DNA of 64,000 nucleotides from Bacteroides uniformis (lineage in GTDB: Bacteria; Bacillota_I; Bacilli_A; RFN20; CAG-826), in assembly GCA_963641445.1 (NCBI GenBank), contig CAVIBR010000008.1, positions 4,282 to 68,281 on the forward strand, written 5' to 3'. Below the pieces are notes generated by a model that was given only the letters and a program-made list of their open reading frames with translations, was not told where the DNA came from and searched no databases. Shown here in pieces: positions 27,945 to 54,592 of the stretch (its first letter is position 1; each line of letters opens with the position of its first letter). Made by a program: the position numbers and the translations under genes.

Positions 27945-28083
27945 AAGATCTTTTAGCGCTTAATATATAAGAAATTGACTAACAAGAATTTTTAGATATC
28001 AAAAATCAAGGTATTTTTGTCTTCGAAAAAGGGTAATAAATTAAAAAAACATAGAAAACATCTAACTTCTTAAAAAATACAAT

Positions 28084-28180
28084 CTCCGATTTTTATTCCT
28101 TTTTTGAGAAAACGATACCCCGATTTTATTCCTTTTTTTGAAAATCGATGTCCGGTTTTTATTCCTTTTTGCTTTAAGTT
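28084..28180. repeat. About 33 bp tandem repeat x3 (ccgatttttattcctttttt...)
   Basis: Seen directly upstream of 28284. Confidence 0.7.
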
Positions 28181-28283
28181 GACTAAAAGCAATGCATCTT
28201 TAGAAATAAACAAAATCTTTTATTAAAAGTTATAATTGAGGGAAAGAAAGTATAATTGCTTTATTACAAAGGAACGGTTAAAA

Positions 28284-28919
28284 ATGAAACAACTAGAAGA
28301 GAAACAATTAAAAGGCTTTCAAAATGAATTAGATAAAGTGCTGAATAGCTATATAAATATAAAGGATAAAAATGGTAAAGTTGTTTTTCAAATCGAACCT
28401 TTATGGATTGAGTATTATTTTTGGCTTGAAAATGGTGATAAATTGCAAGATCCTTCGTGTGATTATGGCAAAGTGGGCACGGAAAATAAGTTAACTGGCA
28501 ATAAATTATATTTTAGAAGTTTTAAACCTGGTAGTGATTGGAAACGTAACCGAATGGATATATGCGTAGGAAAAGACAATGGATATAGGTCGATTCTAAT
28601 AAAAAGAGCTAGATTTTTAAAAGCAGATGGAAAAGATGCGACTAGTGATAAAACAATTTATACTGACTCTCAAATCGCAAGCAAACTACTTGTATATGAT
28701 GGATACAAAAAATCTAATGCCAATGATGAATACGATTATTATAGTTACGAATTGATATCTAAAAATGGTGCATTGGAAAAAGAAAAAATAGGTTATTGTG
28801 GACGTATCGGAATATATGGGGACAAAAGCAATCCATTTAATGAAGAGCCATTGGCAGCATATATTAAAGACTTATTCGAAATTCGGACTTTTATAAAAGA
28901 TAAAACTGATAAAAACTAA
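28284..28919 (+). CDS. Hypothetical protein
   Basis: Start chosen at MKQLEEKQL with RBS AAAGGAACGG. I recognise no motif. Confidence 0.45.
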   Translation: MKQLEEKQLKGFQNELDKVLNSYINIKDKNGKVVFQIEPLWIEYYFWLENGDKLQDPSCDYGKVGTENKLTGNKLYFRSFKPGSDWKRNRMDICVGKDNGYRSILIKRARFLKADGKDATSDKTIYTDSQIASKLLVYDGYKKSNANDEYDYYSYELISKNGALEKEKIGYCGRIGIYGDKSNPFNEEPLAAYIKDLFEIRTFIKDKTDKN

Positions 28920-28993
28920 ATTGATTTTTCATCCAATTTAAACTACTTTTCTTAGTTCTTTTTTATACATGTTTTTTGATAAAAATTATTTCA

Positions 28994-29110
28994 GGGCGAA
29001 AAAGCATAAAAAATATACGATTTCGCCCTAAAAAGCAATTGACTTGAGATATACGGCTTTTAAAATATATTATATAGAGCGAAAAACACTAAATTTTATA
29101 CGATTTCGCC
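28994..29110 (+). repeat. Two copies of hairpin family 1 ([ag]gcgaaaa - 19 nt loop - tttcgc[ct]); the second abuts the RBS of the ATPase gene
   Basis: Copies at 28994-29030 and 29077-29110. Confidence 0.8.
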
Positions 29111-29120
29111 GGAGAATATT

Positions 29121-30542
29121 ATGATAGGCAGAGAAAAAGAAGTAAATGAGTTACTAGATTTATACAATGATTCTAGGGCGGAGTTAGTCGCCGTTTATGG
29201 CAGAAGAAGAGTTGGTAAAACGTTTTTAATCAACCAAACATTTAAAGACAAATTTACTTTTAAACATACCGCTTTATCCCCGGATGGCAATGAAGATGAA
29301 ACAATAGCATTACAATTAGAAAGTTTTTATAGCAGTTTAGTTAAATATGGTTTAGAAGAAACTAAGAAGCCTTCCACTTGGTTCGAAGCATTTGATTTGT
29401 TAGAGAAATTGCTTATCAAGAAAGATAACGGATCTAGGCAAGTTGTATTTTTCGATGAATTACCTTGGCTGGATACTACGAAATCATATTTTATAAAAGC
29501 ATTTGAGTCTTTTTGGAATTCATTTGGCTGCGATAGAGAGAATTTGATGCTGATTGTTTGTGGAAGTGCCAATTCTTGGATTCAAAACAATTTGATTAAC
29601 AATCATGGTGGTTTGTATGGACGTGTCACATATGAGATAAAACTTAGCGCTTTTAATTTAAAAGAGACAGAAGAATATCTAAGGTCCAACGGAATCCTTT
29701 TATCAAGATATGATATTGCAACCGCATATATGATAATGGGGGGAATACCTTATTATTTAGGATATCTCAAAAAAGGAAAAAGTCTTCCTCAGAATATCGA
29801 TGATATTTTCTTCAAGAAAGATGGACAATTATCGTTGGAATTTGATAGATTATTTCAATCATGTTTTGAAAATCCTGATTTTGCAAAGAAACTTGTTATT
29901 TTGCTAAATGAAAGAAAAATCGGATTAACGAGAAATGAAATTGTTGAAAAGCTATCTATTGGTGATGGAGGAAATTTAACAAAAGTTCTTAATTCATTAA
30001 TCTCTAGCGATTTTGTAATTAAATATATTCCATTTGGGACTAAATCAAAAATAAGCTATTACAAATTGATTGACCCATTTTGTATCTTTTATCTGAAATT
30101 TAAATACGAGAAAAGTCCAAGCGAAAGTTATTGGTCCGATAACGATACAAACTCCCAACTTAATTCATGGAAGGGACTAGCTTTTGAAAATGTCTGTTTC
30201 AATCATATAAACCAAATCAAAGATGCGTTAAGAGTTGGTGGAGTGGCAAGCAAAGAATCACCTTGGTATTTCAAAGGTATTGACAACAACGGACAAGTTG
30301 ATTTGGTTATTGAAAGAAATGATAATGTCGTAAATCTTTGCGAGATTAAATTCTATCAATATGATTTTTCCGTTGATCTGAATTATTACAAAAAATTAAA
30401 TTTAAGAATAGAAGCGGCTAGACCATATGTTTCTAAGAGAACTTGCATTTTCAATACTTTGATTACGACTTATGGGTTGCATCAAAATGAGTACAGCAAT
30501 GTTTTCCAAAACGTGATAACTCTTGATGCTCTATTTGAGTAG
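29121..30542 (+). CDS. ATPase of a second family (Arch_ATPase/DUF234-like), paralog 1
   Basis: N-terminus MIGREKEVNELLDLY...VYGRRRVGKTFLI. Confidence 0.8.
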   Translation: MIGREKEVNELLDLYNDSRAELVAVYGRRRVGKTFLINQTFKDKFTFKHTALSPDGNEDETIALQLESFYSSLVKYGLEETKKPSTWFEAFDLLEKLLIKKDNGSRQVVFFDELPWLDTTKSYFIKAFESFWNSFGCDRENLMLIVCGSANSWIQNNLINNHGGLYGRVTYEIKLSAFNLKETEEYLRSNGILLSRYDIATAYMIMGGIPYYLGYLKKGKSLPQNIDDIFFKKDGQLSLEFDRLFQSCFENPDFAKKLVILLNERKIGLTRNEIVEKLSIGDGGNLTKVLNSLISSDFVIKYIPFGTKSKISYYKLIDPFCIFYLKFKYEKSPSESYWSDNDTNSQLNSWKGLAFENVCFNHINQIKDALRVGGVASKESPWYFKGIDNNGQVDLVIERNDNVVNLCEIKFYQYDFSVDLNYYKKLNLRIEAARPYVSKRTCIFNTLITTYGLHQNEYSNVFQNVITLDALFE

Positions 30543-30580
30543 AAGATATTTCATTTATTTCCTTTATATATCAATAAACT

Positions 30581-30615
30581 AGAGCGAAAAACACTATAAT
30601 TGATACGATTTCGCT
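30581..30615 (+). repeat. Hairpin family 1, downstream copy
   Basis: agagcgaaaaacactataattgatacgatttcgct. Confidence 0.8.
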
Positions 30616-31031
30616 TTAGCTTATTTTCTATTGACATAATTATCTATATGAATGAGGGGTTTGTTTTCGCTTTCTAATAGATAATTAATATCCTATTTAT
30701 ATACAAAGATATAGATAACTAAATAATGGATATTCATAATTTTTTTGATCTATACGCAAAAGATACTGGAGTAAACATTTTTTATATAAAATGAAACTAC
30801 TGTAATCTCCATTCTTACAAAAAGTCCCTATTTTCCTAGGTTTCCTATTTATATAAAGATATTTATAGGATTACAAGAAAACAAAATATGTTTCATATAA
30901 AAATAGTAAAAGTAACAAAAATATAAAAAATATTACATTTTCTCTTGCAATGGTTACAAAAGGGTGTATTATATAGCCAAGAGATACAAAGCAGTTGAAC
31001 TTGTAACTCTTAGAAAAGTGAGGCAAAACTT

Positions 31032-32687
31032 ATGAAAAAGAAAAAATTACTCCTAACTGCATTGGTTCCTGCCACTTTATTTGGCATGGCCTCATGCGGT
31101 AACAACAACACCAGCTCAGATACAACTGAGAATTCAAATACTTCGGAATACAAAGAAGAAGACACATCCTTCGATAACTCCTTCTTACTAACATCCGGAG
31201 GCAACCGTCGCTTATCCGCAGAACCATTCATTGATGACGCGACACAGCAAATTATCGATGCGTTAATTTCTAAGGGTGGCGATCTTATCACCGGAGGTAT
31301 TACAACCTATGGTAAGACTGTCGTCATTAATCTTCTTAAAGAATGTGGAATTGACTTCAGAGACGCAACAGCTAAGACTCTTGATAAAATCCAAGAACAA
31401 CTTGGCGCCATCCAAGAGAAGATCACCGCTTTAGCGGAACAAGAAAATCAACACCATTCTGAAGAAATCCTTAACCCAGTTCTTAAACTTGTTAAGAAAG
31501 GTTCCCATTATAGCACCTACTTCGTTGTAAATGGCTTATGTGACTTAGTTGAGCTTGAAACGGATTCCACTTTAACCGAAGATCAAGTTGAAGCGGCAAG
31601 AAAACAATACTATACAGACGCAATCAGCAAACTCTTTATCGATGGTAAGCCATTCGCTGACTTCGTTACTGAAATAGCTGAAGCAGTTCTTACGCCAAAC
31701 GGCGCTGACTTATCAAAAGATATCTTCTATTACTATGATGAAACACTTGGCGTATACGATACCTGGTCAACATTGAAGATCCAAAACATCCAGAACTTCG
31801 CAGCCTATATCGATAGCGTTCTTGTCTCTTGTGCAAACATCGCTAAATTCCAGATGTATTATTACACCCAAGATATGGGCGATATCGCTAAGAAGAGCTA
31901 TGCGAAGATGATTGATACGATGGCCACTTCGATTAACGCCGTTAACGAAAAATTCAAAAAGACTCTTGAATCCCTTCAACCTCTTATCGAAAAGAGAGAC
32001 AAAGGCATTGTCACCTATATGAAGAGTGGCAAAGACTATTCAAGACGTATGGCAACCTTAACATATGACATCAATGATAAGGTTGGAGATAACGATTCTC
32101 GCCAAGGATTAATCAAAGACTTCCACCAATATGAAGATGGCAGAAGGGGTAACTTACTCCGTTACGCCTTACAATATGTGCCAGATACGACATTCGTTGC
32201 ACAAGTTGCAGCAGACTTCAAAACATATTCTCAAGCCTTCTATACACCTGATTACACGCTTATCGATTACTTGAAATATGCTGGATTCTATGCGGTAAAC
32301 CAAGATCTATTCGATAAATCACTTGGCTTGTATAACGCTAACATGTATGCCGATGGATATGGCTGGTATGGTGAAGACTATGACTATTGCGGTACATATT
32401 ACGACACACATGGCGATTATAAGAGAAAGGTTAACTACAGAGTTGCATCCTACCATAACTGGAATGGTAACCCCGTAAGGACAAGACTTGATAACGTTGA
32501 TGCTGGTAACTACTATCTCTGCTTCGCAACTCCTAGTGGAGATAAGCAAGTATTAGATGGCAAATACAGCCTTGTCTATATGAAAGATGAACTCTACACA
32601 GTTCAAAAAGCATCCTTCTTCGATGAATATTACGATGATGTTTATGACAACAACAAGACTGGTTGGTATTTACATGATTGCTGGTAA
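31032..32687 (+). CDS. Large lipoprotein (lipobox GMASCG), function unknown
   Basis: MKKKKLLLTALVPATLFGMASCGNNNT. Confidence 0.65.
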   Translation: MKKKKLLLTALVPATLFGMASCGNNNTSSDTTENSNTSEYKEEDTSFDNSFLLTSGGNRRLSAEPFIDDATQQIIDALISKGGDLITGGITTYGKTVVINLLKECGIDFRDATAKTLDKIQEQLGAIQEKITALAEQENQHHSEEILNPVLKLVKKGSHYSTYFVVNGLCDLVELETDSTLTEDQVEAARKQYYTDAISKLFIDGKPFADFVTEIAEAVLTPNGADLSKDIFYYYDETLGVYDTWSTLKIQNIQNFAAYIDSVLVSCANIAKFQMYYYTQDMGDIAKKSYAKMIDTMATSINAVNEKFKKTLESLQPLIEKRDKGIVTYMKSGKDYSRRMATLTYDINDKVGDNDSRQGLIKDFHQYEDGRRGNLLRYALQYVPDTTFVAQVAADFKTYSQAFYTPDYTLIDYLKYAGFYAVNQDLFDKSLGLYNANMYADGYGWYGEDYDYCGTYYDTHGDYKRKVNYRVASYHNWNGNPVRTRLDNVDAGNYYLCFATPSGDKQVLDGKYSLVYMKDELYTVQKASFFDEYYDDVYDNNKTGWYLHDCW

Positions 32688-32704
32688 GCACTAAGCAGAG
32701 TCTT

Positions 32705-32741
32705 AGAGGAACTAAAGAGAAATCTTAGTTCCTCTTTTTTG
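32705..32741 (+). terminator. Rho-independent terminator
   Basis: agaggaactaa-agagaaatc-ttagttcctct + tttttt. Confidence 0.75.
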
Positions 32742-33095
32742 TGCTAGAAAATCCAAATATCATATGCAAAACCCATCTAAAACTTCATTTCTAGAAATAT
32801 TAAATTCTTTTTGAACGTTACATAAATAATGTTACAAACGTCAATATGATATTATTCGCATCTCTAGCAAAAAGATGCTTAGCAATACGTATTTTTCTTC
32901 CTCTTGTATCTTAAGGATGAACCAATCTTAGAGAAATATCTAAATTAATGATGAAAATAGGAACAAATGTTCGATTAGATATGGGTCTCACTTAGACATC
33001 CTTAAGAATATAAGATTATTCTGGGAGGTGTTCGATATTAGAAATAAGAGAATTAGAAAGAAGAATACGAGTCTAGAAATTAAGGAGGAAAAAGA

Positions 33096-33728
33096 ATGAG
33101 TGTTGTTGTGGCGATAAAAGAAAATGGAAAGGTTTATATGGGTTGCGATTCCCAAGTTACTTGTGGAACGACCAAAAGCACTCTAAGCAATCCTAACAAC
33201 TTTAAGATGTGGAAAGTCAAAGGAGTTGATAATTGCCTTATGGCAAGCGTTGGGGACGTAAGAAATGCTTGCGTGATAAGAACAATAGAAGATCTTGTTA
33301 CCGAATACGATGCCTATAAAGGACGTATTTGTTATGAGTTTGTTGTGAATAGGATTCTTCCTACAATCATTGAACGTCTTCAAGATGCTAATTATCTAAA
33401 AAGAGATGAAGTCTTTAGAGATTTAGGCTCAAGCATCTTGTTTGCCTATAAAGATCAGCTATATGAGATCTGTTACGATGGGTCGGTGTTTGAAATTGAT
33501 GGCTGCGTAGCGCTTGGAAGTGGAATGAAACAAGCTCTTGGAAGCATGATTGAAAGAGAAGGGGAAGATCCAAAAACAAGGATCGTCAAAGCAATCAAAT
33601 CAAGCATGTCTGATATCTATGTCGATTATCCGATAATCTTATCTGATACGGAAACAACAGAATTTAATATAATCGCTAAGGAAAACGAAACAGATTACCT
33701 TAAATCCATCGAAGGTCAAACTAGATGA
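33096..33728 (+). CDS. HslV-like / proteasome-beta-like Ntn hydrolase (peptidase T1 family)
   Basis: MSVVVAIKENGKVYMGCDSQVTCG compares to HslV [23 protein letters not shown], and CVALGSGMKQALG to AIGSGGPYAQAA. The predicted N-terminal nucleophile is Ser2 rather than Thr. Strong RBS. Confidence 0.6.
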   Translation: MSVVVAIKENGKVYMGCDSQVTCGTTKSTLSNPNNFKMWKVKGVDNCLMASVGDVRNACVIRTIEDLVTEYDAYKGRICYEFVVNRILPTIIERLQDANYLKRDEVFRDLGSSILFAYKDQLYEICYDGSVFEIDGCVALGSGMKQALGSMIEREGEDPKTRIVKAIKSSMSDIYVDYPIILSDTETTEFNIIAKENETDYLKSIEGQTR

Positions 33729-33855
33729 AGTTCTTAGGACATATTTTATCTGGCTTGTCCTAGTTTCTTTAGGATATGTCATTTGCTATTTTGGTTGGTT
33801 AAATACGCTAATTAGATGGATTGAAAATTTAGACCATTAATTAAGGAGAATTTGA

Positions 33856-35148
33856 ATGGAAAAATATACTTTAGATAATTTTGGTGGATATGAAGAAGAA
33901 AAGATTGAAGCGGAGAAAATAATCAATTTCTTAAAAAATTATGATTATTACGTCTCACAAGGGGCGTATCTTCCTAAAGGGATGCTCATATACGGTCAAC
34001 CAGGAACAGGAAAGACGATGTTATCGAAGATCATCTCTAGCGAAGCAAACGTTCCTCTTGTCACTCTAGATTTGAAGAATTCTGCTAACTTCAATTTGAT
34101 TGACGCGATAAATAAGGTCTTTGATCAAGCGCTTAGCAAGACTCCATCCGTCTTATTGCTTGATGAGATTGATCAAACCGTTAAGATGAGAAGATACGGT
34201 GATGCGACCGATAGAGAGAATGATGTTCTTAGAACATTGCTAACAAGAATTGATGGAATCAATACCTCTGATGGGGTATTTATCATTGCAACATCAAACG
34301 TTTCCTCGGTTGAAGAATGTGACCAAGCCTTAACTAGACAAGGAAGAATTGAAAAATACATCAGCCTACATTTACCGAATATCGATGAAAGAAAAGAAAT
34401 TCTAAAAATCTATCTCAATAAGAATCACATATTCGATGATGTCAATGTTGCTACACTTGCTAAACGTACAAAAGGGTTTAGTGGATCATCAATTAAATCC
34501 TTGATCAATTCCGTCTTGATATGGGCCTTAAATGAGAAAGTGGATAATGTTTCTACAGATGATTTCTATCAATATATCCAGCAAATATCTCATCGTGGAA
34601 TCAATAAGAAAAAGACTTCTGATACGGATTTAAAGGCTACGGCATATCATGAATTAGGACATTTCATCTGTGACTATATTCTAAATAAGAATATTGGAAC
34701 AATATCAATTGAAACATATGGTGAGACCGCTGGAGCATATAGACGCGTTCAAGACGAAGAAAGAGAAAATACTAGCTATACAGCCTTAAAGAATGAAATT
34801 ACTGTTGCCTTAGGAGGACTTGCTGCAGTTGAAGTGTATCTAGGAGAAAAATACACTGGAGCAGCAAGCGATATCAAAAAGGCTAGAGGCATATATGAAG
34901 AAATGCTTGATAATGGGATGCTCGGCCTAGATAGACTAAATGAAGCACCATTAAGATTGAGGTCAATTGCTGTACTTAGCTTATCTGAGGAATACCTATC
35001 TAGAGAAGGAAAATTCATGACTGAATGTTATCAGGCTGCAACGAACATTATTAAAGAAAACAAAGAAATAATTGATAAGCTCTATCCAATCTTAGTTAAG
35101 AATAAAATCATCTTCGAATCTAAGATTAATGAGATATTGAAGAAGTAG
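33856..35148 (+). CDS. Soluble FtsH-like AAA+ ATPase with M41 metallopeptidase domain (no TM or periplasmic region)
   Basis: Walker A GQPGTGKT, Walker B LLLDEID, second region of homology ATSNVSSVEECDQALTRQGRIEKYI. M41 zinc motif TAYHELGHF plus a TGAASDIKKAR block like FtsH TGASNDIKVAT. Confidence 0.75.
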   Translation: MEKYTLDNFGGYEEEKIEAEKIINFLKNYDYYVSQGAYLPKGMLIYGQPGTGKTMLSKIISSEANVPLVTLDLKNSANFNLIDAINKVFDQALSKTPSVLLLDEIDQTVKMRRYGDATDRENDVLRTLLTRIDGINTSDGVFIIATSNVSSVEECDQALTRQGRIEKYISLHLPNIDERKEILKIYLNKNHIFDDVNVATLAKRTKGFSGSSIKSLINSVLIWALNEKVDNVSTDDFYQYIQQISHRGINKKKTSDTDLKATAYHELGHFICDYILNKNIGTISIETYGETAGAYRRVQDEERENTSYTALKNEITVALGGLAAVEVYLGEKYTGAASDIKKARGIYEEMLDNGMLGLDRLNEAPLRLRSIAVLSLSEEYLSREGKFMTECYQAATNIIKENKEIIDKLYPILVKNKIIFESKINEILKK

Positions 35149-35519
35149 ATTACAGGTATCTCGTAGTGGGATGCCTTTTAATATTGGAAAAACGGATTGA
35201 TTCTTTTTGATTTCGAATGGGATATTTGGATTGCCTAAAAGGTTATTCAATCTAGAGGAAATAGGTGCAAAGAGTTTCTTAAGGCGAAAGAAACATTATA
35301 ATGAAGAACCAGTCAATGAAAGTAAAAACATTCATCTTAGCAAAAATGTTTGGACGGCTTGTTAGAGAATAAGCAGATGTGCTTATCAAAAAGATGAATA
35401 AAGAAAAAACTACAGAAGTGATTAACAAGAGAATTTTCATCGTAGATTAGCAAAATAATAAAGCTTCACATATGTTTTTTGGATTTTTGAGCAATAAATT
35501 CTTTAAGTGGAATTTTTAT

Positions 35520-35640
35520 TTTTGGCGGAAAGTGTCAAAAAAAATTGAGTTTCCGCCAAAAATGTTTAGAATTTTTTCTTATTTTTATGATAAGATAATT
35601 GGCGGAAAGTACTAAAAAAATTGAGTTTCCGCCAAAAATG
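35520..35640 (+). repeat. Two copies of hairpin family 2 (ttttggcggaaa - 18 nt loop - tttccgccaaaa); the second abuts the RBS
   Basis: Copies at 35520-35564 and 35598-35640. Confidence 0.8.
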
Positions 35641-35652
35641 GAGGTTTAAAGT

Positions 35653-37071
35653 ATGATTATCGGAAGAGAAAAAGAAGTCAATATCTTGCAAGAAAATTAT
35701 AAGTCGGATGGATCATCATTTATTGCAGTTTATGGCAGAAGAAGAATTGGTAAAACTTTTCTTATCAATGAAACTTTGGGCGATAAAATTCTTTTTAGGC
35801 ATGCAGGCATTTATGGTGGCACTTGCAAACAGCAAATAAAGTCTTTCATGAAATCTCTTGCTGAATATGGATATGCTCCCCAAGACAACGTTAAGGATTG
35901 GTTTGACGCTTTCGAAGAATTGAAAAATTATATAAAGTCTTCCAATGAAAGCAAAAAGGTTTTGTTTTTTGATGAAATCGCTTGGATGTATACGAAAAAA
36001 TCTGATTTCGTTCGTGCATTAGAATATTTCTGGAATAGCTGGGCAAGTGCTAGAAAAGATATTATGTTAGTGATTTGCTCTTCTGCAACATCTTGGATAA
36101 TCAACAATATAGTTCATAGCAAAGGCGGTTTATATAATAGGATTACGGCACAAATATATTTAGAACCATTTACATTGAATGAGTGTGAAAAATATTGTGC
36201 ATACAAGAATTTAGCTTTGACTCGTAAACAAATAATTGAAACCTATATGGTTATTGGTGGTGTTCCATATTATTGGAATTATCTAAAAAAAGGAGAATCA
36301 GTTGCTAAATTTATTGATAACAATTTCTTTGCTAACAATTCTCCATTAAGTGATGAACTGAAATATATATTTTCTTCTTTGTTTTCTTCGCCTGAAGCTT
36401 ATTTAAAAATCATTGAGGCGTTATCAGAGAAAAAATATGGCTTAACTAGGCAAGAAATTCTAATTGAAACAAAGCAGGATGAAAACGGCAATTTCTCACA
36501 AAAAATAGAAGATTTAGTAAACTGCGGATTTATAAGAGAGTATTCATCTTTCAAATCGAAAAAGAAAGAAGTACTTTACCAATTGATTGATCCTTTTACC
36601 ATTTTCCATTTTCATTTTTTGAAGAAAAGAGTGAATGATGAGAATTTTTGGGCAAATCAAATAAATTCTCCTACTATAAACGCATGGAAAGGCCTTGCTT
36701 TTGAAAGAATCTGCCTGTTGCATCTAAATAGTATTAAGAAAGCAATGGGAATATTTGGAGTATATACATCAGTTTATCCTTTTTCATGCAAGCAAAATGA
36801 GGAGAAGAACATATTCGGATCTCAAATTGATATGGTTTTAGAAAGAAAAGACGATATTGTGAATCTTTTTAAAATTAAATATTATGATGAGCCTTTCTCA
36901 TTAACTAAAAAGCATCTTGAATTATTTTCAAGGAAAAAACATGATTTTGTGGAAGTTACAAAAACCAAATCATCTATTCATTTATCTTTGATTTCATTGA
37001 ATGGCGTAGTTGAAAACGAGTATCTTAATGAGATTCAAACCGTTCTTAACGAAGATGATTTGTTCTTATAA
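35653..37071 (+). CDS. ATPase of a second family (Arch_ATPase/DUF234-like), paralog 2
   Basis: MIIGREKEVNILQENY...VYGRRRIGKTFLI. Confidence 0.8.
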   Translation: MIIGREKEVNILQENYKSDGSSFIAVYGRRRIGKTFLINETLGDKILFRHAGIYGGTCKQQIKSFMKSLAEYGYAPQDNVKDWFDAFEELKNYIKSSNESKKVLFFDEIAWMYTKKSDFVRALEYFWNSWASARKDIMLVICSSATSWIINNIVHSKGGLYNRITAQIYLEPFTLNECEKYCAYKNLALTRKQIIETYMVIGGVPYYWNYLKKGESVAKFIDNNFFANNSPLSDELKYIFSSLFSSPEAYLKIIEALSEKKYGLTRQEILIETKQDENGNFSQKIEDLVNCGFIREYSSFKSKKKEVLYQLIDPFTIFHFHFLKKRVNDENFWANQINSPTINAWKGLAFERICLLHLNSIKKAMGIFGVYTSVYPFSCKQNEEKNIFGSQIDMVLERKDDIVNLFKIKYYDEPFSLTKKHLELFSRKKHDFVEVTKTKSSIHLSLISLNGVVENEYLNEIQTVLNEDDLFL

Positions 37072-37091
37072 ATTGTAGCTTTTTAATTATT

Positions 37092-37134
37092 TTTGGCGGA
37101 AAGTGCCTAAAAAATTGAGTTTCCGCCAAAAATG
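37092..37134 (+). repeat. Hairpin family 2, downstream copy
   Basis: ttttggcggaaagtgcctaaaaaattgagtttccgccaaaaatg. Confidence 0.8.
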
Positions 37135-37443
37135 TTAAAAATATCAATCAAAAACAAAGTTAAAATAAAGTATTTATCGAATTCTTTTGTTACCTATTTT
37201 TCACACCAACAAATTGTTGTTTTAACGCATTATAACGATGACTGTTTTGAAAAATGATAACAAATGATAACAAATGACAACAAATTTGACATAATACTCT
37301 AAGCAAGGAGGCTTATATGATAGGGAATTATACAATAGCCCATTCAATGTATCGTATGCGAACAACCAAAATGCTTTATTCCAAGAAAAGGCGAATTTGA
37401 AGAAATAAGAACTGTTTTTTCATCTGATGACCCTAGGACAAAA

Positions 37444-38376
37444 GTGTTTCTTATTGGTGGGTCTAGAGGATGTGGGAAGACCGTTTTACTTTCTCAACTC
37501 AAAGAACATTTCGATAAAAGTGATGATTGGGTTTGCGTTGATTTAAATCCGTTTTTAGATATGTTTGAACAACTTGCCTCTAAACTCTACTCGGAAGGAA
37601 AACTTAAACATCTATTTTTGAAAAGTGAATTTTCTATTTCTTTCAAGGGCATTTCCTTTTCTCTTTCTGGAGAGAATCCAGTTACTGATGCATCCTCATT
37701 AATAAAGGCGATGTTGCAGTATTTAAAAAAGAAAGGGAAACGTGTCTTGATAACTATTGATGATATATCAGGAAATTCTGAAGCAAAGGCTTTCTTCCAA
37801 GGCTACCAATCGTTCATTAGAGAGAAGTTTGATATCTTTCTCCTTATGACTGGTTTATATGAAAATGTATCTAATATTGTTAACGATAAAAGTCTAACCT
37901 TCCTTCTAAGGACTCCTAACATATACTTATCAAAGTTAAACGTTAGGGGGATTAGCCTTTCATATCAAAACCAGTTGGGCGTTGGCTTTGACAAGGCTTT
38001 AGAATTCGCAAAGCTTACTAAGGGCTACGCCTATGCATATCAATTACTTGGCGACCTTTTATACCGCACTGACAAAAAAATTACTGAAGAAATTCTTCAA
38101 TCTTTTGATTCTACATTAGAAGATAACGTATATAACAAGATTTGGAGCTCTTTATCTAAGAATCAAAAAACGATATGTTATGCGTTGTCTTCATTAAATA
38201 AAAAAGAAGTTAAAGAACTAATTGATTCAACTGGCTTCTCTAATTCGATGATTCAAGTATACAAAAAGAGAATGTATTTAGTGGGTATATTAGATTTATC
38301 AACTAGAGGAGAAATAGATTTTTCTTTGCCTAGATTTAAAGAATTTGTTAAATTTCAAAAAGCGTTAGAAGAATAA
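37444..38376 (+). CDS. Divergent P-loop ATPase paralog with no canonical start; possible pseudogene
   Basis: GGSRGCGKT. The frame is open back to 37339 with no ATG. The ORF track begins at a GTG. Confidence 0.4.
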   Translation: MFLIGGSRGCGKTVLLSQLKEHFDKSDDWVCVDLNPFLDMFEQLASKLYSEGKLKHLFLKSEFSISFKGISFSLSGENPVTDASSLIKAMLQYLKKKGKRVLITIDDISGNSEAKAFFQGYQSFIREKFDIFLLMTGLYENVSNIVNDKSLTFLLRTPNIYLSKLNVRGISLSYQNQLGVGFDKALEFAKLTKGYAYAYQLLGDLLYRTDKKITEEILQSFDSTLEDNVYNKIWSSLSKNQKTICYALSSLNKKEVKELIDSTGFSNSMIQVYKKRMYLVGILDLSTRGEIDFSLPRFKEFVKFQKALEE

Positions 38377-38447
38377 AATCATTTCTTAAAATTCAAATAT
38401 TGCATGCAAAACCCCTTTCTTTTCATGGAAAGGGGTGATTTTAGTTC

Positions 38448-53164: not shown

Positions 53165-54592
53165 TTAGAGGAATAAGTCTTCTCCGATAATTTCCTTTTG
53201 AATTACATCGGAATGAGAATTCTCTTTCAAACCGTTATTAGTAATCATCGTTAACACCAATTGTTCATTTGGTTTAACTTCATTTGCAAAGACTTGTATT
53301 TTGTGAAGAAGATTCTCTTCATAATCTTTTGTTATTTCATATTTGCCAATGGAATGTTTGATTTCACATACGTTTATGATCATGTCTCTTCTATGAATCA
53401 ATAAATCGATTTGAGCGCCAGGATCTGATTTTTTGCTTTTCCAGGAATATTCTTTTGTCATTACTCCTGATATCCCTAAAGCATTTTTAATCGAAGATAT
53501 ATTGTTTAGGCAAAGAATTTCAAAAGCATGTCCTGCCCAAGCATAATATGCAGGCGTATTTATGAATGATAGCCAATTGTCGAAAGAGGGTGAGATGAGA
53601 AAAGTTTTAGCAAACAAAGTGAATGGATCAATTAATTGGTAGAACTTATTGTTTTTTGCCGTGTTATAGTTTTCATAGGCTCTTACAAAACCACACTCGG
53701 ATAATTCTTCTAAAGCAGTAGTTAAGGATTTTCCATCACCTATAGATGAAATCGAAGCAAGTTCTTTTCTTTGCATACCCATGCTTTTCTTCATCAATGC
53801 TTCGATTATTTCTCTATGTTTCCCTTTTGCGTTGAATAGAGACCTAAACAAAGCCTGATATTCGTCATGCAACTGACCACTTTCTTTGAAACATAAATTA
53901 TCGATATTTTGAGCTAAGCTCATTTCTGAATCTAATAAATCCCAATAATATGGGATTCCGCCAAAAACCATGTAAGTTTCAATTATTTGGCTTTTTGTAT
54001 AATGCAATTTCAATTGCTCGCTATATAAAAGACATTCTTTCAATGAGAAAGGCATTAGATGTATTTTTCTTGTCAAACGATTATAAAAACCGCCAGTATC
54101 TTTGACCATGTTGTTCATAATCCAAGATGTAGCAGAACCACATACAATGAAGACTAAGTCGTTTTGCATTGAACCATAGGTATTCCAGAATGAATCTAAG
54201 CCTGCTTTAAAATCGCTTCTTTTCCCATCCATCCACGGTAATTCATCTAAGAATACAATTCTTTTCTTATAAATTGGATCACGATAAACGTTATCGCTTT
54301 CTAAGAATTTCTTTAGAAGCCTAAAAGCGTCAAGCCAATCCTTTGGCTCAGAGCCATCTTCAATCTTATAGCTATAATCAACCAAGGCATTGGTGAAATT
54401 CTTTAGTTGAAAAGCATTGTTTTTGTTATTTATGCCACTGGCATAGAAAGAGAACTTGTTGTTAAAGAACTTTTTAATAAGATATGTTTTGCCGACTCTT
54501 CGTCTTCCGTATAAAACCAAGAATTCTGGTTTAGAAGATTTTAGGCAAGATAGAAGTTCTTTTTGCTCATCAACACGACCGATTAAGTTCAT
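53165..54592 (-). CDS. ATPase of a second family (Arch_ATPase/DUF234-like), paralog 3
   Basis: MNLIGRVDEQKELLSCL...LYGRRRVGKTYLI. Same architecture as 29121 and 35653. Confidence 0.8.
   Translation of the reverse strand: MNLIGRVDEQKELLSCLKSSKPEFLVLYGRRRVGKTYLIKKFFNNKFSFYASGINNKNNAFQLKNFTNALVDYSYKIEDGSEPKDWLDAFRLLKKFLESDNVYRDPIYKKRIVFLDELPWMDGKRSDFKAGLDSFWNTYGSMQNDLVFIVCGSATSWIMNNMVKDTGGFYNRLTRKIHLMPFSLKECLLYSEQLKLHYTKSQIIETYMVFGGIPYYWDLLDSEMSLAQNIDNLCFKESGQLHDEYQALFRSLFNAKGKHREIIEALMKKSMGMQRKELASISSIGDGKSLTTALEELSECGFVRAYENYNTAKNNKFYQLIDPFTLFAKTFLISPSFDNWLSFINTPAYYAWAGHAFEILCLNNISSIKNALGISGVMTKEYSWKSKKSDPGAQIDLLIHRRDMIINVCEIKHSIGKYEITKDYEENLLHKIQVFANEVKPNEQLVLTMITNNGLKENSHSDVIQKEIIGEDLFL

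What the first reader, a model, noticed from the sequence alone, without database searches (positions are those of the whole stretch)
33096..35148. HslV-like Ntn peptidase paired with a TM-less FtsH (AAA+M41): a possible non-canonical ATP-dependent protease module
The 210 aa protein aligns with HslV over both the N-terminal nucleophile region and the GSG loop, but would expose Ser rather than Thr after Met removal. The 430 aa gene 128 bp downstream is unmistakably FtsH-like (Walker A and B, second region of homology, HEXGH and the downstream Asp ligand). It lacks the entire N-terminal transmembrane and periplasmic module, so it should be cytosolic. Canonical HslV pairs with the ClpX-like HslU. 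An HslV homolog next to an FtsH-clade unfoldase-protease is not an arrangement I know. The pair is embedded between the hairpin-bracketed ATPase cassettes, which is a defence-island-like context.
Basis: partly seen in the sequence, partly recalled or inferred. Interest (0 to 1): 0.7.

Follow-up and report, generated by a model that had tools for sequence, protein, structure and literature searches.

The report
Proteasome-like peptidase plus soluble FtsH-like protease
Two adjacent genes encode a proteasome-type peptidase with a serine nucleophile and a membrane-free FtsH-like ATP-dependent zinc protease; the pairing recurs in several distant gut and rumen bacteria and has not been described, but the FtsH-like partner lacks the loop that normally threads substrates, so it is probably not a simple unfoldase for the peptidase.

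Summary
ORFs 33096-33728 (210 aa) and 33856-35148 (430 aa) are intact, on the same strand, each with its own ribosome-binding site, and bracketed by two stable terminator-like hairpins.

- **Gene 1:** a proteasome/HslV/BPH-fold Ntn peptidase from a tightly conserved family. Met-Ser start, Asp18, Lys37 and Gly-Ser-Gly are conserved.
- **Gene 2:** not an ftsH pseudogene. It belongs to its own family of about 430-aa soluble AAA+M41 proteins. Walker A/B, arginine fingers, HEXXH and the Asp zinc ligand are conserved. There is no membrane segment, and 0 of 40 members keep the pore-1 aromatic loop.

**Co-conservation is real but facultative.** A proteasome-like gene lies next to or near the AAA-M41 gene in 6 of 11 AAA-M41 lineages, down to about 30% identity. 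None of 32 unbiased peptidase loci carries AAA-M41; 20 carry a kinase-VWA-VWA-PP2C (TerY-P-like) module and 3 a 370-aa classical AAA ATPase with an intact pore loop.

**Best reading:** a minimal two-protease variant of a mix-and-match regulated-proteolysis cassette of variable, probably conflict or stress, islands. I rate it a new variant of a known kind, interest about 0.6.

The parts
32705..32740 (+). Terminator-like hairpin (11-bp stem AGAGGAACTAA/TTAGTTCCTCT, then a T run) that ends the upstream lipoprotein gene. It marks the left boundary of the two-gene unit.
   Evidence: Sequence read. Folding gives -16 kcal/mol, z -3.1, with 0 of 200 shuffles as stable. The consensus scan missed it because the loop is longer than 8 nt.
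33082..33088 (+). Ribosome-binding site AAGGAGG, 7 nt upstream of the ATG of the peptidase gene.
   Evidence: Sequence read.
33096..33728 (+). Gene 1: a 210-aa proteasome-family (HslV/BPH-like) Ntn peptidase. Predicted nucleophile Ser2 (33099-33101), Asp18 (33147-33149), Lys37 (33204-33206), Gly-Ser-Gly 141-143 (33516-33524).
   Evidence: ORF. PF00227 above its cut-off. Family invariants. Profile alignment to HslV and BPH. AlphaFold2 model at pLDDT 90.3 and fold search.
33729..33855 (+). 127-nt spacer with the ribosome-binding site AAGGAG (33843-33848) for gene 2. It holds no terminator-like site and no unusual structure.
   Evidence: Sequence. Terminator scan. Fold z -0.72. No Rfam match.
33856..35148 (+). 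Gene 2: a 430-aa soluble FtsH-family AAA+ / M41 zinc protease. Walker A 33994-34017, degenerate pore-1 region D72-D83 at 34069-34104, Walker B 34162-34167, arginine-finger region 34336-34347, HELGH 34648-34662, Asp339 zinc ligand 34870-34872.
   Evidence: ORF. Pfam, NCBIfam and PADLOC results. Family alignment A2. CDC48 and FtsH alignments. Pore-loop and hydropathy counts.
35154..35176 (+). Terminator-like hairpin followed by TTTTAATATT, 6 nt after the stop codon of gene 2. It marks the right boundary of the unit.
   Evidence: Terminator scan. Folding gives -12 kcal/mol, z -3.4, with 0 of 200 shuffles as stable.

Best explanation
The two genes form one transcription unit: a minimal two-protease version of a mobile, mix-and-match regulated-proteolysis cassette. 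Such cassettes occur in variable (probably conflict or stress) islands of gut and rumen Bacillota (Acholeplasmatales, Erysipelotrichaceae, Clostridia).

Gene 1 makes a proteasome-fold Ntn peptidase that exposes Ser as nucleophile after Met removal. By analogy with HslV, BPH and 20S it presumably forms a self-compartmentalising ring (inferred).

Gene 2 makes a cytosolic hexameric FtsH-type machine (inferred from conserved arginine fingers and the M41 disk). Its ATPase and zinc-protease sites are intact, but it has no membrane anchor and no pore-1 aromatic loop. It is therefore unlikely to thread folded substrates.

I propose that it acts as an ATP-dependent partner: a regulator, activator or second-stage protease. 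It could dock through the AAA face that loss of the membrane module exposes, or it could process the peptidase, or the peptides the peptidase releases. I do not think it is a canonical unfoldase.

In sister loci the unfoldase role is more plausibly filled by a separate 370-aa classical AAA ATPase with an intact KW[YF]G pore loop, and signal input by a kinase / 2xVWA / PP2C (TerY-P-like) module with a WYL regulator. The window carries none of these.

- Shown: gene integrity, domains, conserved catalytic residues, loss of the TM module and pore loop, and recurrence of the pairing.
- Inferred: co-transcription, oligomeric state, physical interaction, and the defence or stress role.
For: One unit:
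- Same strand, own Shine-Dalgarno sites, no terminator between the genes, and stable hairpins immediately before and after.

Catalytic competence:
- S2, D18, K37 and GSG are invariant or nearly so in 34-40 family members and align to HslV Thr1, Asp17, Lys33 and GSGG.
- In the AAA-M41 family, Walker A/B, R161, G163-R164, HExGH and D339 are invariant or nearly so in 40 members.

Recurrence of the pair (percent identity, Ntn / AAA-M41):
- L177, 31/51%, gap 52 nt.
- L002/L003, 42/40%, gap 14 nt.
- L011, 59/39%, with a 110-aa gene between.
- L039, four tandem Ntn paralogs followed by AAA-M41, about 30%.
- L044, AAA-M41 - Sel1 - p206 - AAA370 - Ntn - inactive Ntn - VWA, with a divergent WYL gene.
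- Strain-level relatives keep both genes on the same seven contigs.

Both families also sit in the same kind of island. The kinase-VWA-VWA-PP2C-WYL module follows the Ntn gene in 20 of 32 loci and precedes AAA-M41 in L012.

Loss of the pore loop: 0 of 40 short AAA-M41 against 66 of 68 true FtsH. Every AAA370 keeps SKW[YF]G.

Conflict-type context:
- PDC-S27 candidates flank the pair.
- WYL regulators, ADP-ribosylglycohydrolase and Macro genes, and an ICE context occur in relatives.
- The TerY-P triad is described as a signalling switch, and a TerY-P-like module as a stand-alone antiphage system (PMC10542128).
Against: - No experiment and no multimer model supports a physical complex.
- Seen from the peptidase side the pairing is rare: 0 of 32 unbiased loci.
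- AAA-M41 has other upstream partners in 5 of 11 lineages.
- Pairwise divergences of the two proteins correlate only weakly (r 0.45 over 15 pairs), which suggests repeated re-association rather than strict co-inheritance.
- No known defence model covers the pair. PADLOC gives nothing for the peptidase, and only AAA-core similarity to IetA for gene 2.
- The defence role rests on neighbourhood alone, and PDC-S27 is itself only a candidate.
- No C-terminal HbYX-type docking motif is visible in AAA-M41 or AAA370.
Confidence: 0.45

Rival explanations
1. The soluble FtsH-like protein is the unfoldase that recognises, unfolds and feeds substrates into the HslV-like peptidase ring, as a non-canonical HslUV or PAN-20S analogue.
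For: - The AAA domain belongs to the classical clade that includes the proteasomal ATPases (PAN 144 bits, CDC48 119 bits).
- ATPase motifs and arginine fingers are conserved.
- Loss of the membrane module frees the substrate-entry face of the ring.
- The pairing recurs.
Against: - The pore-1 aromatic-hydrophobic-Gly loop, held responsible for substrate binding and translocation in FtsH (PMC9020784), is absent in all 40 family members. It is replaced by short, variable, often acidic segments.
- The fused M41 disk occupies the exit face of the AAA ring.
- Where a canonical pore loop exists in these cassettes, it is on a separate protein (AAA370), and the window lacks that protein.
- There is no HbYX motif or HslU-like C-terminal tail.
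Confidence: 0.15
2. A guard, or toxin-antitoxin-like, arrangement. AAA-M41 is the constant component. It continuously degrades or restrains the product of whatever variable gene lies upstream (the Ntn peptidase here; a small Cys/His protein, a TPR/Sel1 protein or others elsewhere). The restraint is released when infection or stress inactivates or titrates the protease.
For: - The upstream partner varies while the downstream AAA-M41 is conserved: Ntn, the p126-147 family, TPR p296, Sel1 p286 and p563.
- The genes are closely spaced, with gaps of 14-52 nt in several loci.
- ADP-ribosylglycohydrolase or Macro genes lie nearby.
Against: - The Ntn family mostly exists without AAA-M41 (0 of 32 loci), so it does not intrinsically need this neutraliser.
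- There is no evidence that the peptidase is toxic.
- Without a pore loop, degradation of a folded partner is not obviously possible.
Confidence: 0.2
3. Two functionally independent genes lie side by side only because both are cargo of the same variable or defence-type islands.
For: - Both families are patchy, and each has several alternative neighbours.
- The correlation of their divergences is weak.
- The region is a mosaic of cassettes.
Against: - The order and strand are the same, with short or no spacers, in at least five further lineages at 27-59% identity.
- Both families are rare: 33 of 185,579 species genomes matched the peptidase, and a few dozen 50%-identity clusters of short AAA-M41 appear among the best 150 of 1.84 billion representatives.
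- There is no terminator between the two genes in the window.
Confidence: 0.15
4. Gene 2 is a 5'-truncated remnant of the housekeeping ftsH.
For: It aligns to FtsH only from model position 158 onward.
Against: - It is only about 30% identical to full-length FtsH.
- Dozens of independent clusters of 425-480-aa proteins share the same start, MxK..L.DIAGY.
- The frame is intact, it has its own ribosome-binding site, and the catalytic residues are conserved.
Confidence: 0.01

Closest known systems
HslV (ClpQ) / HslVU, including B. subtilis CodWX
   Same: Single-gene proteasome-fold Ntn peptidase of about 180-210 aa, with the nucleophile directly after the initiator Met. Asp17, Lys33 and GSG equivalents are conserved. 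A Ser nucleophile has a precedent in CodW. It is genetically coupled to an AAA+ protein.
   Different: It scores far below the HslV equivalog cut-offs (22 against 137-158 bits). The neighbouring AAA+ is of the FtsH/classical clade, not the HslU (HCLR) clade, and it is fused to its own protease. By fold it is as close to BPH and 20S beta subunits as to HslV.
BPH and the uncharacterised proteasome homologs of Fuchs, Alva & Lupas 2021 (AAH, PPH, Firmicute clusters FC1-FC5)
   Same: A bacterial stand-alone proteasome-like protein of patchy distribution. The best structural match is BPH. Distant relatives (25-30%) are annotated 'peptidase HslV family' in large phages and in a Bacillus linear plasmid, as that paper describes for AAH and PPH.
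   Different: That survey reported no conserved context and explicitly no co-occurring AAA+ partner. This family shows three recurrent contexts: TerY-P-like, AAA370 and AAA-M41. I could not test which of their clusters, if any, it belongs to, because their sequences are not held.
FtsH (AAA+ / M41 membrane protease)
   Same: The same fused AAA+ plus lid plus M41 architecture. Walker A/B, second region of homology, HEXXH and the Asp ligand all align to T. maritima FtsH.
   Different: It has no N-terminal transmembrane helices or periplasmic domain. It lacks the FVG pore-1 motif. It scores 250 bits against the 600-bit cut-off of the FtsH equivalog. It is encoded in variable islands next to accessory genes rather than as a housekeeping gene.
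IetAS anti-phage system (AAA ATPase IetA plus subtilisin-like protease IetS)
   Same: A two-gene AAA ATPase plus protease module in defence islands. The AAA core of gene 2 matches IetA models (106 bits; NCBIfam IteA 92 bits against a cut-off of 510).
   Different: The similarity is confined to the generic AAA core. There is no S8 protease. The proteases here are of the M41 and Ntn types, and the score is far below the curated cut-off.
TerY-P triad (VWA + PP2C + Ser/Thr kinase) signalling or defence modules
   Same: In 20 of 32 sister loci the same peptidase family is the first gene of a kinase-VWA-VWA-PP2C array, often with a WYL regulator. TerY-P is described as a phosphorylation switch, and a TerY-P-like variant as an antiphage system.
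   Different: The window has no kinase, VWA or PP2C gene. The VWA and PP2C proteins of the sister loci hit no PADLOC model. A proteasome-like component is not part of the described triad.
Archaeal and actinobacterial 20S proteasome with PAN, Mpa or CDC48
   Same: A proteasome-fold peptidase linked to classical-clade AAA ATPases. Some sister loci carry alternating active and inactive Ntn paralogs reminiscent of beta and alpha subunits.
   Different: The window has no alpha subunit, there is no HbYX motif, and no Pup/ubiquitin-like tagging genes were seen near it. The AAA partner here lacks a pore loop.

Membership tests
Proteasome-like Ntn peptidase superfamily (Pfam PF00227) | Sequence match above the curated threshold | tested here: met
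   35.3 bits against a cut-off of 22.4, covering residues 4-152.
Proteasome-like Ntn peptidase superfamily (Pfam PF00227) | Alpha-beta-beta-alpha Ntn fold | tested here: met
   The AlphaFold2 model has pLDDT 90.3. Foldseek top hits are BPH, 20S beta and HslV at E 3e-11 to 1e-8, probability 1.00.
Proteasome-like Ntn peptidase superfamily (Pfam PF00227) | N-terminal Thr/Ser nucleophile with Asp17 and Lys33 equivalents | tested here: met
   S2 and D18 are invariant in both alignments; K37 is invariant in A3 and nearly invariant in A1 (34 and 40 sequences). They align to HslV T1, D17 and K33. Met removal is inferred, not shown.
HslV (ClpQ) | Match to the HslV equivalog models above their cut-offs | tested here: not met
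   NF003964 22.5 bits against 137; TIGR03692 21.9 bits against 157.75.
HslV (ClpQ) | Adjacent hslU (ClpY) partner | tested here: not met
   The adjacent AAA+ gene is of the FtsH family, AAA+M41. Whether hslVU exists elsewhere in the genome cannot be seen from this window.
HslV (ClpQ) | Dodecamer of two hexameric rings | not testable with these tools
   No multimer prediction or experiment is available.
FtsH (TIGR01241 equivalog) | Fused AAA+ and M41 domains with HEXXH and an Asp zinc ligand | tested here: met
   PF00004 3.7e-24 and PF01434 6.3e-18. HELGH and D339 are conserved and align to T. maritima FtsH.
FtsH (TIGR01241 equivalog) | N-terminal transmembrane helices and extracytoplasmic domain (PF06480) | tested here: not met
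   The alignment starts at model position 158. There is no PF06480 hit. Maximum hydropathy is 1.08 against 2.73 in a true FtsH.
FtsH (TIGR01241 equivalog) | Pore-1 FVG (aromatic-hydrophobic-Gly) motif | tested here: not met
   0 of 40 family members against 66 of 68 full-length FtsH. The window has S-A-N-F where CDC48 has M-W-Y-G.
FtsH (TIGR01241 equivalog) | Score above the curated cut-off | tested here: not met
   250 bits against 600.
IetAS defence system | IetA ATPase above its cut-off together with an IetS subtilisin-like protease | tested here: not met
   NCBIfam IteA scores 92.5 bits against 510. The PADLOC IetA match covers the AAA core only. No S8 protease was detected among the neighbouring ORFs (29121-38376) scanned.
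TerY-P(-like) triad | Ser/Thr kinase, VWA and PP2C genes in the locus | tested here: not met
   tblastn with the sister-locus kinase, VWA and PP2C proteins finds nothing in the 64-kb window. They are present in 20 of 32 sister loci.
Fuchs et al. 2021 clusters (AAH, PPH, FC1-FC5 and others) | Clustering with their reference sequences | not testable with these tools
   The reference accessions are listed, but the sequences and alignments are not held.

The most novel reading that the evidence does not exclude
The window shows the smallest form of a previously unrecognised proteasome-like degradation system of Bacillota. In it a Ser1 proteasome-family peptidase, in some genomes diversified into alternating active and inactive (beta- and alpha-like) paralogs, works with classical-clade AAA partners: a 370-aa unfoldase and a soluble FtsH-derived AAA-metalloprotease. 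Input would come from VWA proteins and a kinase/PP2C switch under a WYL regulator. That would be a bacterial counterpart, convergent or ancestral-like, of the AAA / VWA / metalloprotease-equipped proteasome, used for infection- or stress-triggered proteolysis.
Probability: 0.15. Interest if true: 0.85.

Novelty: new variant of a known kind. Interest (0 to 1): 0.6.

Why it matters
HslV pairs with HslU, an ATPase from a different AAA+ clade than the proteasomal ATPases. The 2021 survey of 22 new proteasome homologs found no AAA+ partner for any of them (PMC8665760). This leaves open how proteasome-like peptidases acquired their ATPase partners.

A proteasome-fold peptidase that is repeatedly linked to classical-clade AAA proteins gives a concrete, clonable system for testing that question. 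The same loci are also linked to VWA, kinase and PP2C modules, and in some genomes they carry paralog arrays that alternate active and inactive copies.

Separately, a soluble FtsH-type protease that keeps its ATPase and zinc sites but has lost both the membrane anchor and the substrate-threading loop is an unusual natural variant. It could show what the AAA ring does when it cannot translocate.

If the cassette proves to be an anti-phage or stress module, it would add a proteasome-type effector to the list of bacterial conflict systems.

Tried and rejected
1. A single-sequence genome scan for the peptidase found nothing. The alignment-based scan worked.
2. Viral contigs hold no member of the peptidase family. 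Their only AAA-M41 matches are generic FtsH homologs at 33% identity or less, mostly in giant-virus bins. I therefore dropped the idea that the pair is phage-borne.
3. Annotated phages and plasmids hold only 25-30% relatives of the peptidase, in replication-type neighbourhoods without AAA-M41.
4. I tested whether the 147-, 296- and 204-aa genes near AAA-M41 in L001 and L012 are hidden Ntn homologs. They are not.
5. I tested whether AAA370 or AAA-M41 is an IetA ortholog. The similarity is confined to the AAA core.
6. I looked for an RNA element or a small ORF in the 408-nt leader, the 127-nt spacer and the 504-nt trailer. There are no Rfam hits and no convincing small ORFs.
7. A 30-nt inverted repeat flanks the pair (32737-32766 / 35469-35498, 80% complementary) together with a related direct repeat. 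A search allowing up to 3 mismatches finds only the seed copy, so I treat these as weak or chance.
I rebuilt the alignment.
9. Literature searches for this pairing returned nothing relevant.
10. The supplement of Fuchs et al. holds no sequences to test cluster membership.
11. The organism was not identified.
Full report
**1. What is in the sequence**

The window holds two intact ORFs on the + strand exactly as reported: 33096-33728 (210 aa) and 33856-35148 (430 aa). They are separated by 127 nt.

Each has a strong Shine-Dalgarno sequence: AAGGAGG at 33082-33088 and AAGGAG at 33843-33848.

The upstream lipoprotein gene (31032-32687) ends in an 11-bp-stem hairpin plus a T run at 32705-32740. A second hairpin plus T run sits at 35154-35176, just after gene 2. 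Both are much more stable than shuffled sequence (z -3.1 and -3.4, with 0 of 200 shuffles as stable). The spacer between the two genes is not unusually structured (z -0.7) and holds no terminator-like site.

No Rfam family and no convincing small ORF lies in the leader, spacer or trailer. The simplest reading is a two-gene transcription unit. This is inferred, not shown.

**2. Gene 1**

- It passes Pfam Proteasome (35.3 bits against 22.4).
- It is far below the HslV equivalog cut-offs (about 22 bits against 137-158).
- It has more than 600 relatives at the 90%-cluster level, most 55-70% identical and about 200-215 aa long.
- In alignments of 34 and 40 members, S2, D18, G141 and Y175-V-D177 are invariant in both. 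K37, G143 and Y178-P179 are invariant in one and nearly invariant in the other, and S142 is nearly invariant.
- The family profile hits HslV (1m4y, 6e-7) and BPH (5ovu, 3.5e-5). The register places S2 on Thr1, D18 on Asp17, K37 on Lys33 and GSG on the HslV GSGG.
- An AlphaFold2 model (pLDDT 90.3, pTM 0.88) retrieves BPH, 20S beta subunits and HslV (E 3e-11 to 1e-8, TM 0.6-0.7, 15-21% identity).

It is therefore a genuine proteasome-fold Ntn peptidase with a complete catalytic set and a Ser nucleophile, but it is not an HslV ortholog.

A Ser nucleophile has precedent: B. subtilis CodW (PMC7468587) and the 'Thr1/Ser1' listing of Fuchs et al..

**3. Gene 2**

It carries AAA, AAA-lid and Peptidase_M41 domains. 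It aligns to the FtsH model from position 158 onward, at 250 bits against a 600-bit cut-off.

It is not a truncated ftsH, for three reasons:
- It is about 30% identical to full-length FtsH.
- An exhaustive representative search lists dozens of 50%-identity clusters of 425-500-aa proteins at 33-51% identity.
- These share the same N-terminus.

In 40 members the following are invariant or nearly so: Walker A (G47..K53-T54), Walker B (D103-E104), R161, G163-R164, H265-E-x-G-H269 and D339. HELGH and GAASDI align to HEAGH and GAANDI of T. maritima FtsH. No hydrophobic segment exists.

One new point changes the functional reading. The pore-1 loop is gone. Where CDC48-D2 has M-W-Y-G and FtsH has F-V/A-G, the window protein has S-A-N-F. 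The family has short, variable, often acidic segments at this position. An aromatic-hydrophobic-Gly motif occurs in 0 of 40 members, against 66 of 68 full-length FtsH from the same search. The FVG phenylalanine is the residue held responsible for substrate binding and translocation in FtsH (PMC9020784).

**4. Is the pair co-conserved?**

*From the AAA-M41 side (11 lineages examined)*

A proteasome-like gene is adjacent or close in six:
- The window itself.
- L177: Ntn 31% and AAA-M41 51% identical to the window proteins, gap 52 nt.
- L002/L003: 42% and 40%, gap 14 nt.
- L011: 59% and 39%, with a 110-aa gene between.
- L039: four tandem Ntn paralogs, then AAA-M41.
- L044: AAA-M41 - Sel1 protein - p206 - AAA370 - Ntn - inactive Ntn - VWA, with a divergent WYL gene.

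The other five have different upstream genes:
- A small, unannotated 126-147-aa family, MAYYLVL.KCGH.GR...IPRVKHNHKDAIL, in L001, L129 and L131/132.
- A TPR-like protein in L012.
- A 563-aa protein in L130.

*From the peptidase side*

An unbiased sample came from 33 species-representative genomes and 42 metagenome contigs. It gave 32 close-family loci with at least 3 kb downstream:

| Neighbour of the Ntn gene | Loci (of 32) |
|---|---|
| Ser/Thr kinase - VWA - VWA - PP2C array, often followed by a WYL/WCX regulator | 20 |
| 370-aa classical AAA ATPase (AAA370); one of these loci also has the kinase array | 3 |
| ClpP-like gene in an ICE | 1 |
| None of these | 9 |
| AAA-M41 | 0 |

The pairing is therefore real and ancient enough to be seen at about 30% identity. 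It is also facultative. Pairwise divergences of the two proteins correlate only weakly (r 0.45), which suggests repeated re-assortment.

At strain level, relatives at 90% identity or more keep both genes on the same seven contigs.

**5. The wider system**

AAA370 (L002, L011, L015, L030, L034, L035, L042, L044) always keeps the canonical SKW[YF]G[ED]xE pore loop. It is therefore the better candidate for an unfoldase. The window has no AAA370, kinase, VWA or PP2C gene.

The kinase/VWA/PP2C combination corresponds to the TerY-P triad. That triad is described as a phosphorylation-dependent switch associated with restriction-type systems, and a TerY-P-like variant is described as a stand-alone antiphage system (PMC10542128). 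The VWA and PP2C proteins here match no PADLOC model.

AAA-M41 also appears downstream of such an array in L012, on a contig cut inside the kinase gene. It appears next to ADP-ribosylglycohydrolase or Macro genes in L012, L131/132 and L129.

In the window the pair lies in a mosaic region between hairpin-bracketed ATPase_2/DUF234 genes that match the PADLOC candidate PDC-S27 at 1e-183 and 3e-180. That mosaic is in turn embedded among ordinary chromosomal genes: a GH3 glycosidase, an aldo-keto reductase and an M18 aminopeptidase.

**6. How it most likely works**

*Shown*
- Both proteins retain complete catalytic sites.
- AAA-M41 retains the inter-subunit arginine fingers expected of a ring ATPase.
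- AAA-M41 lacks the membrane anchor and the pore-1 loop.
- The two genes are recurrent neighbours.

*Inferred*
- Ntn forms an HslV/BPH-like ring.
- AAA-M41 forms an FtsH-like hexamer. Soluble FtsH domains can hexamerise on their own (PMC9020784).
- The two act together in regulated proteolysis.

Because AAA-M41 cannot be expected to thread folded substrates, I favour a partner role over an HslU-like unfoldase role. That role could be allosteric activation or gating through the AAA face exposed by loss of the membrane module. It could equally be processing of the peptidase, or of the peptides it releases.

I put the 'functional two-protease cassette of a conflict/stress island' reading at about 0.45. 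The rivals are:

| Rival reading | Confidence |
|---|---|
| Guard / toxin-antitoxin-like | 0.20 |
| Classical unfoldase model | 0.15 |
| Mere co-location | 0.15 |
| ftsH pseudogene | about 0.01 |

**7. Comparison with what is known, and novelty**

The peptidase belongs to the proteasome-like superfamily but fails the HslV membership test. The ATPase-protease belongs to the FtsH family in architecture and active sites, but fails three defining FtsH features: membrane module, pore motif and score cut-off.

Fuchs, Alva and Lupas (2021) catalogued 22 new proteasome homologs, including five Firmicute clusters and phage-linked groups. They stated that they found no informative genomic context and no co-occurring AAA+ partner. 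I could not test which of their clusters this family corresponds to.

No paper describing a proteasome-like / soluble-FtsH pairing, or a proteasome-like gene heading TerY-P-like arrays, turned up in the searchable library. That is absence of evidence within that library only.

I rate the finding a new variant of a known kind, with interest 0.6. The most novel reading not excluded is a proteasome-like system of Bacillota with classical AAA partners, alpha/beta-like paralogs, and VWA and phospho-signalling input. I give it about 0.15 probability, and it would be of high interest if true.

Noticed in passing
window 28974-30625 and 35523-37134; also 53165-54592 (-) and 37444-38376: Two about 1.42-kb ATPase_2/DUF234 genes (PADLOC candidate PDC-S27, 1e-183 and 3e-180; 39% identical to each other) are each bracketed by copies of their own hairpin repeat, GGGCGAAA...TTTCGCCC and GGCGGAAA...TTTCCGCC. 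A third paralog lies at 53165-54592 on the minus strand, and a 5'-truncated-looking relative at 37444-38376.
   Followed up: partly
L039 10001-14281 (uncultured Coprobacillus MAG): Four tandem proteasome-like paralogs lie directly upstream of a soluble AAA-M41 gene. They alternate between copies with the Met-Ser...D[ST]Q catalytic N-terminus and copies that have lost it (active, inactive, active, inactive), which is reminiscent of beta and alpha differentiation.
   Followed up: partly
L044 4158-14509 (uncultured Clostridia MAG): An all-in-one array: a divergent WYL regulator, then AAA-M41 - Sel1-repeat protein - 206-aa protein - AAA370 - active Ntn - inactive Ntn paralog - VWA - two unknown proteins. 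It is the strongest single hint that all these components belong to one pathway.
   Followed up: partly
L001 3825-4268; L129 295-675; L131 47-442: A small unannotated protein family (126-147 aa, motif MAYYLVL.KCGH.GR...AENG.EAA.IAR.IPRVKHNHKDAIL, no Pfam hit) lies immediately upstream of AAA-M41 in three lineages, in place of the proteasome-like gene.
   Followed up: partly
L012 4050-4886; L131 1822-2649; L129 5216-5779: ADP-ribosylglycohydrolase genes (two lineages) and a Macro-domain gene (one lineage) lie within a few genes of soluble AAA-M41. This suggests a link to ADP-ribosylation-based conflict systems.
   Followed up: no
L004/L005/L016 6001-11664: In an Acholeplasmatales MAG the same peptidase family is followed by a 162-aa unknown protein, a ClpP-like protease, a 527-aa unknown protein, a VirD4/TraG-type coupling protein and an FtsK-gamma protein. 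This places it inside a conjugative-element-like module.
   Followed up: no
L012 8387-13269: Downstream of AAA-M41 and a WYL regulator lies an 1152-aa FtsK/SpoIIIE-family ATPase followed by several 86-92-aa proteins. The layout resembles an EssC plus WXG100-type secretion cluster. This resemblance rests on my own knowledge and was not tested.
   Followed up: no
window 32737-32774, 35211-35237, 35469-35498, 38388-38414: Weakly similar copies of a roughly 27-30-nt AT-rich element (AAAATCCAAATATCATATGCAAAACCC) occur at the borders of the pair and of the neighbouring cassette, in direct and inverted orientation at 78-85% identity. A search allowing 3 mismatches or fewer finds only the seed copy, so this may be chance.
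   Followed up: partly
window 28066-28170: Three tandem copies of a 33-nt-period repeat (CTTTTTT.GA.AA...CCGATTTTTATTCCTTTTT) lie upstream of the ORF at 28236-28919 (family D4).
   Followed up: no
window 31032-32687: A 551-aa predicted lipoprotein (signal peptide with lipobox ...FGMASCGNN) has no family assignment in Pfam, NCBIfam, PHROGs or PADLOC. It lies just upstream of the pair but is separately terminated.
   Followed up: partly
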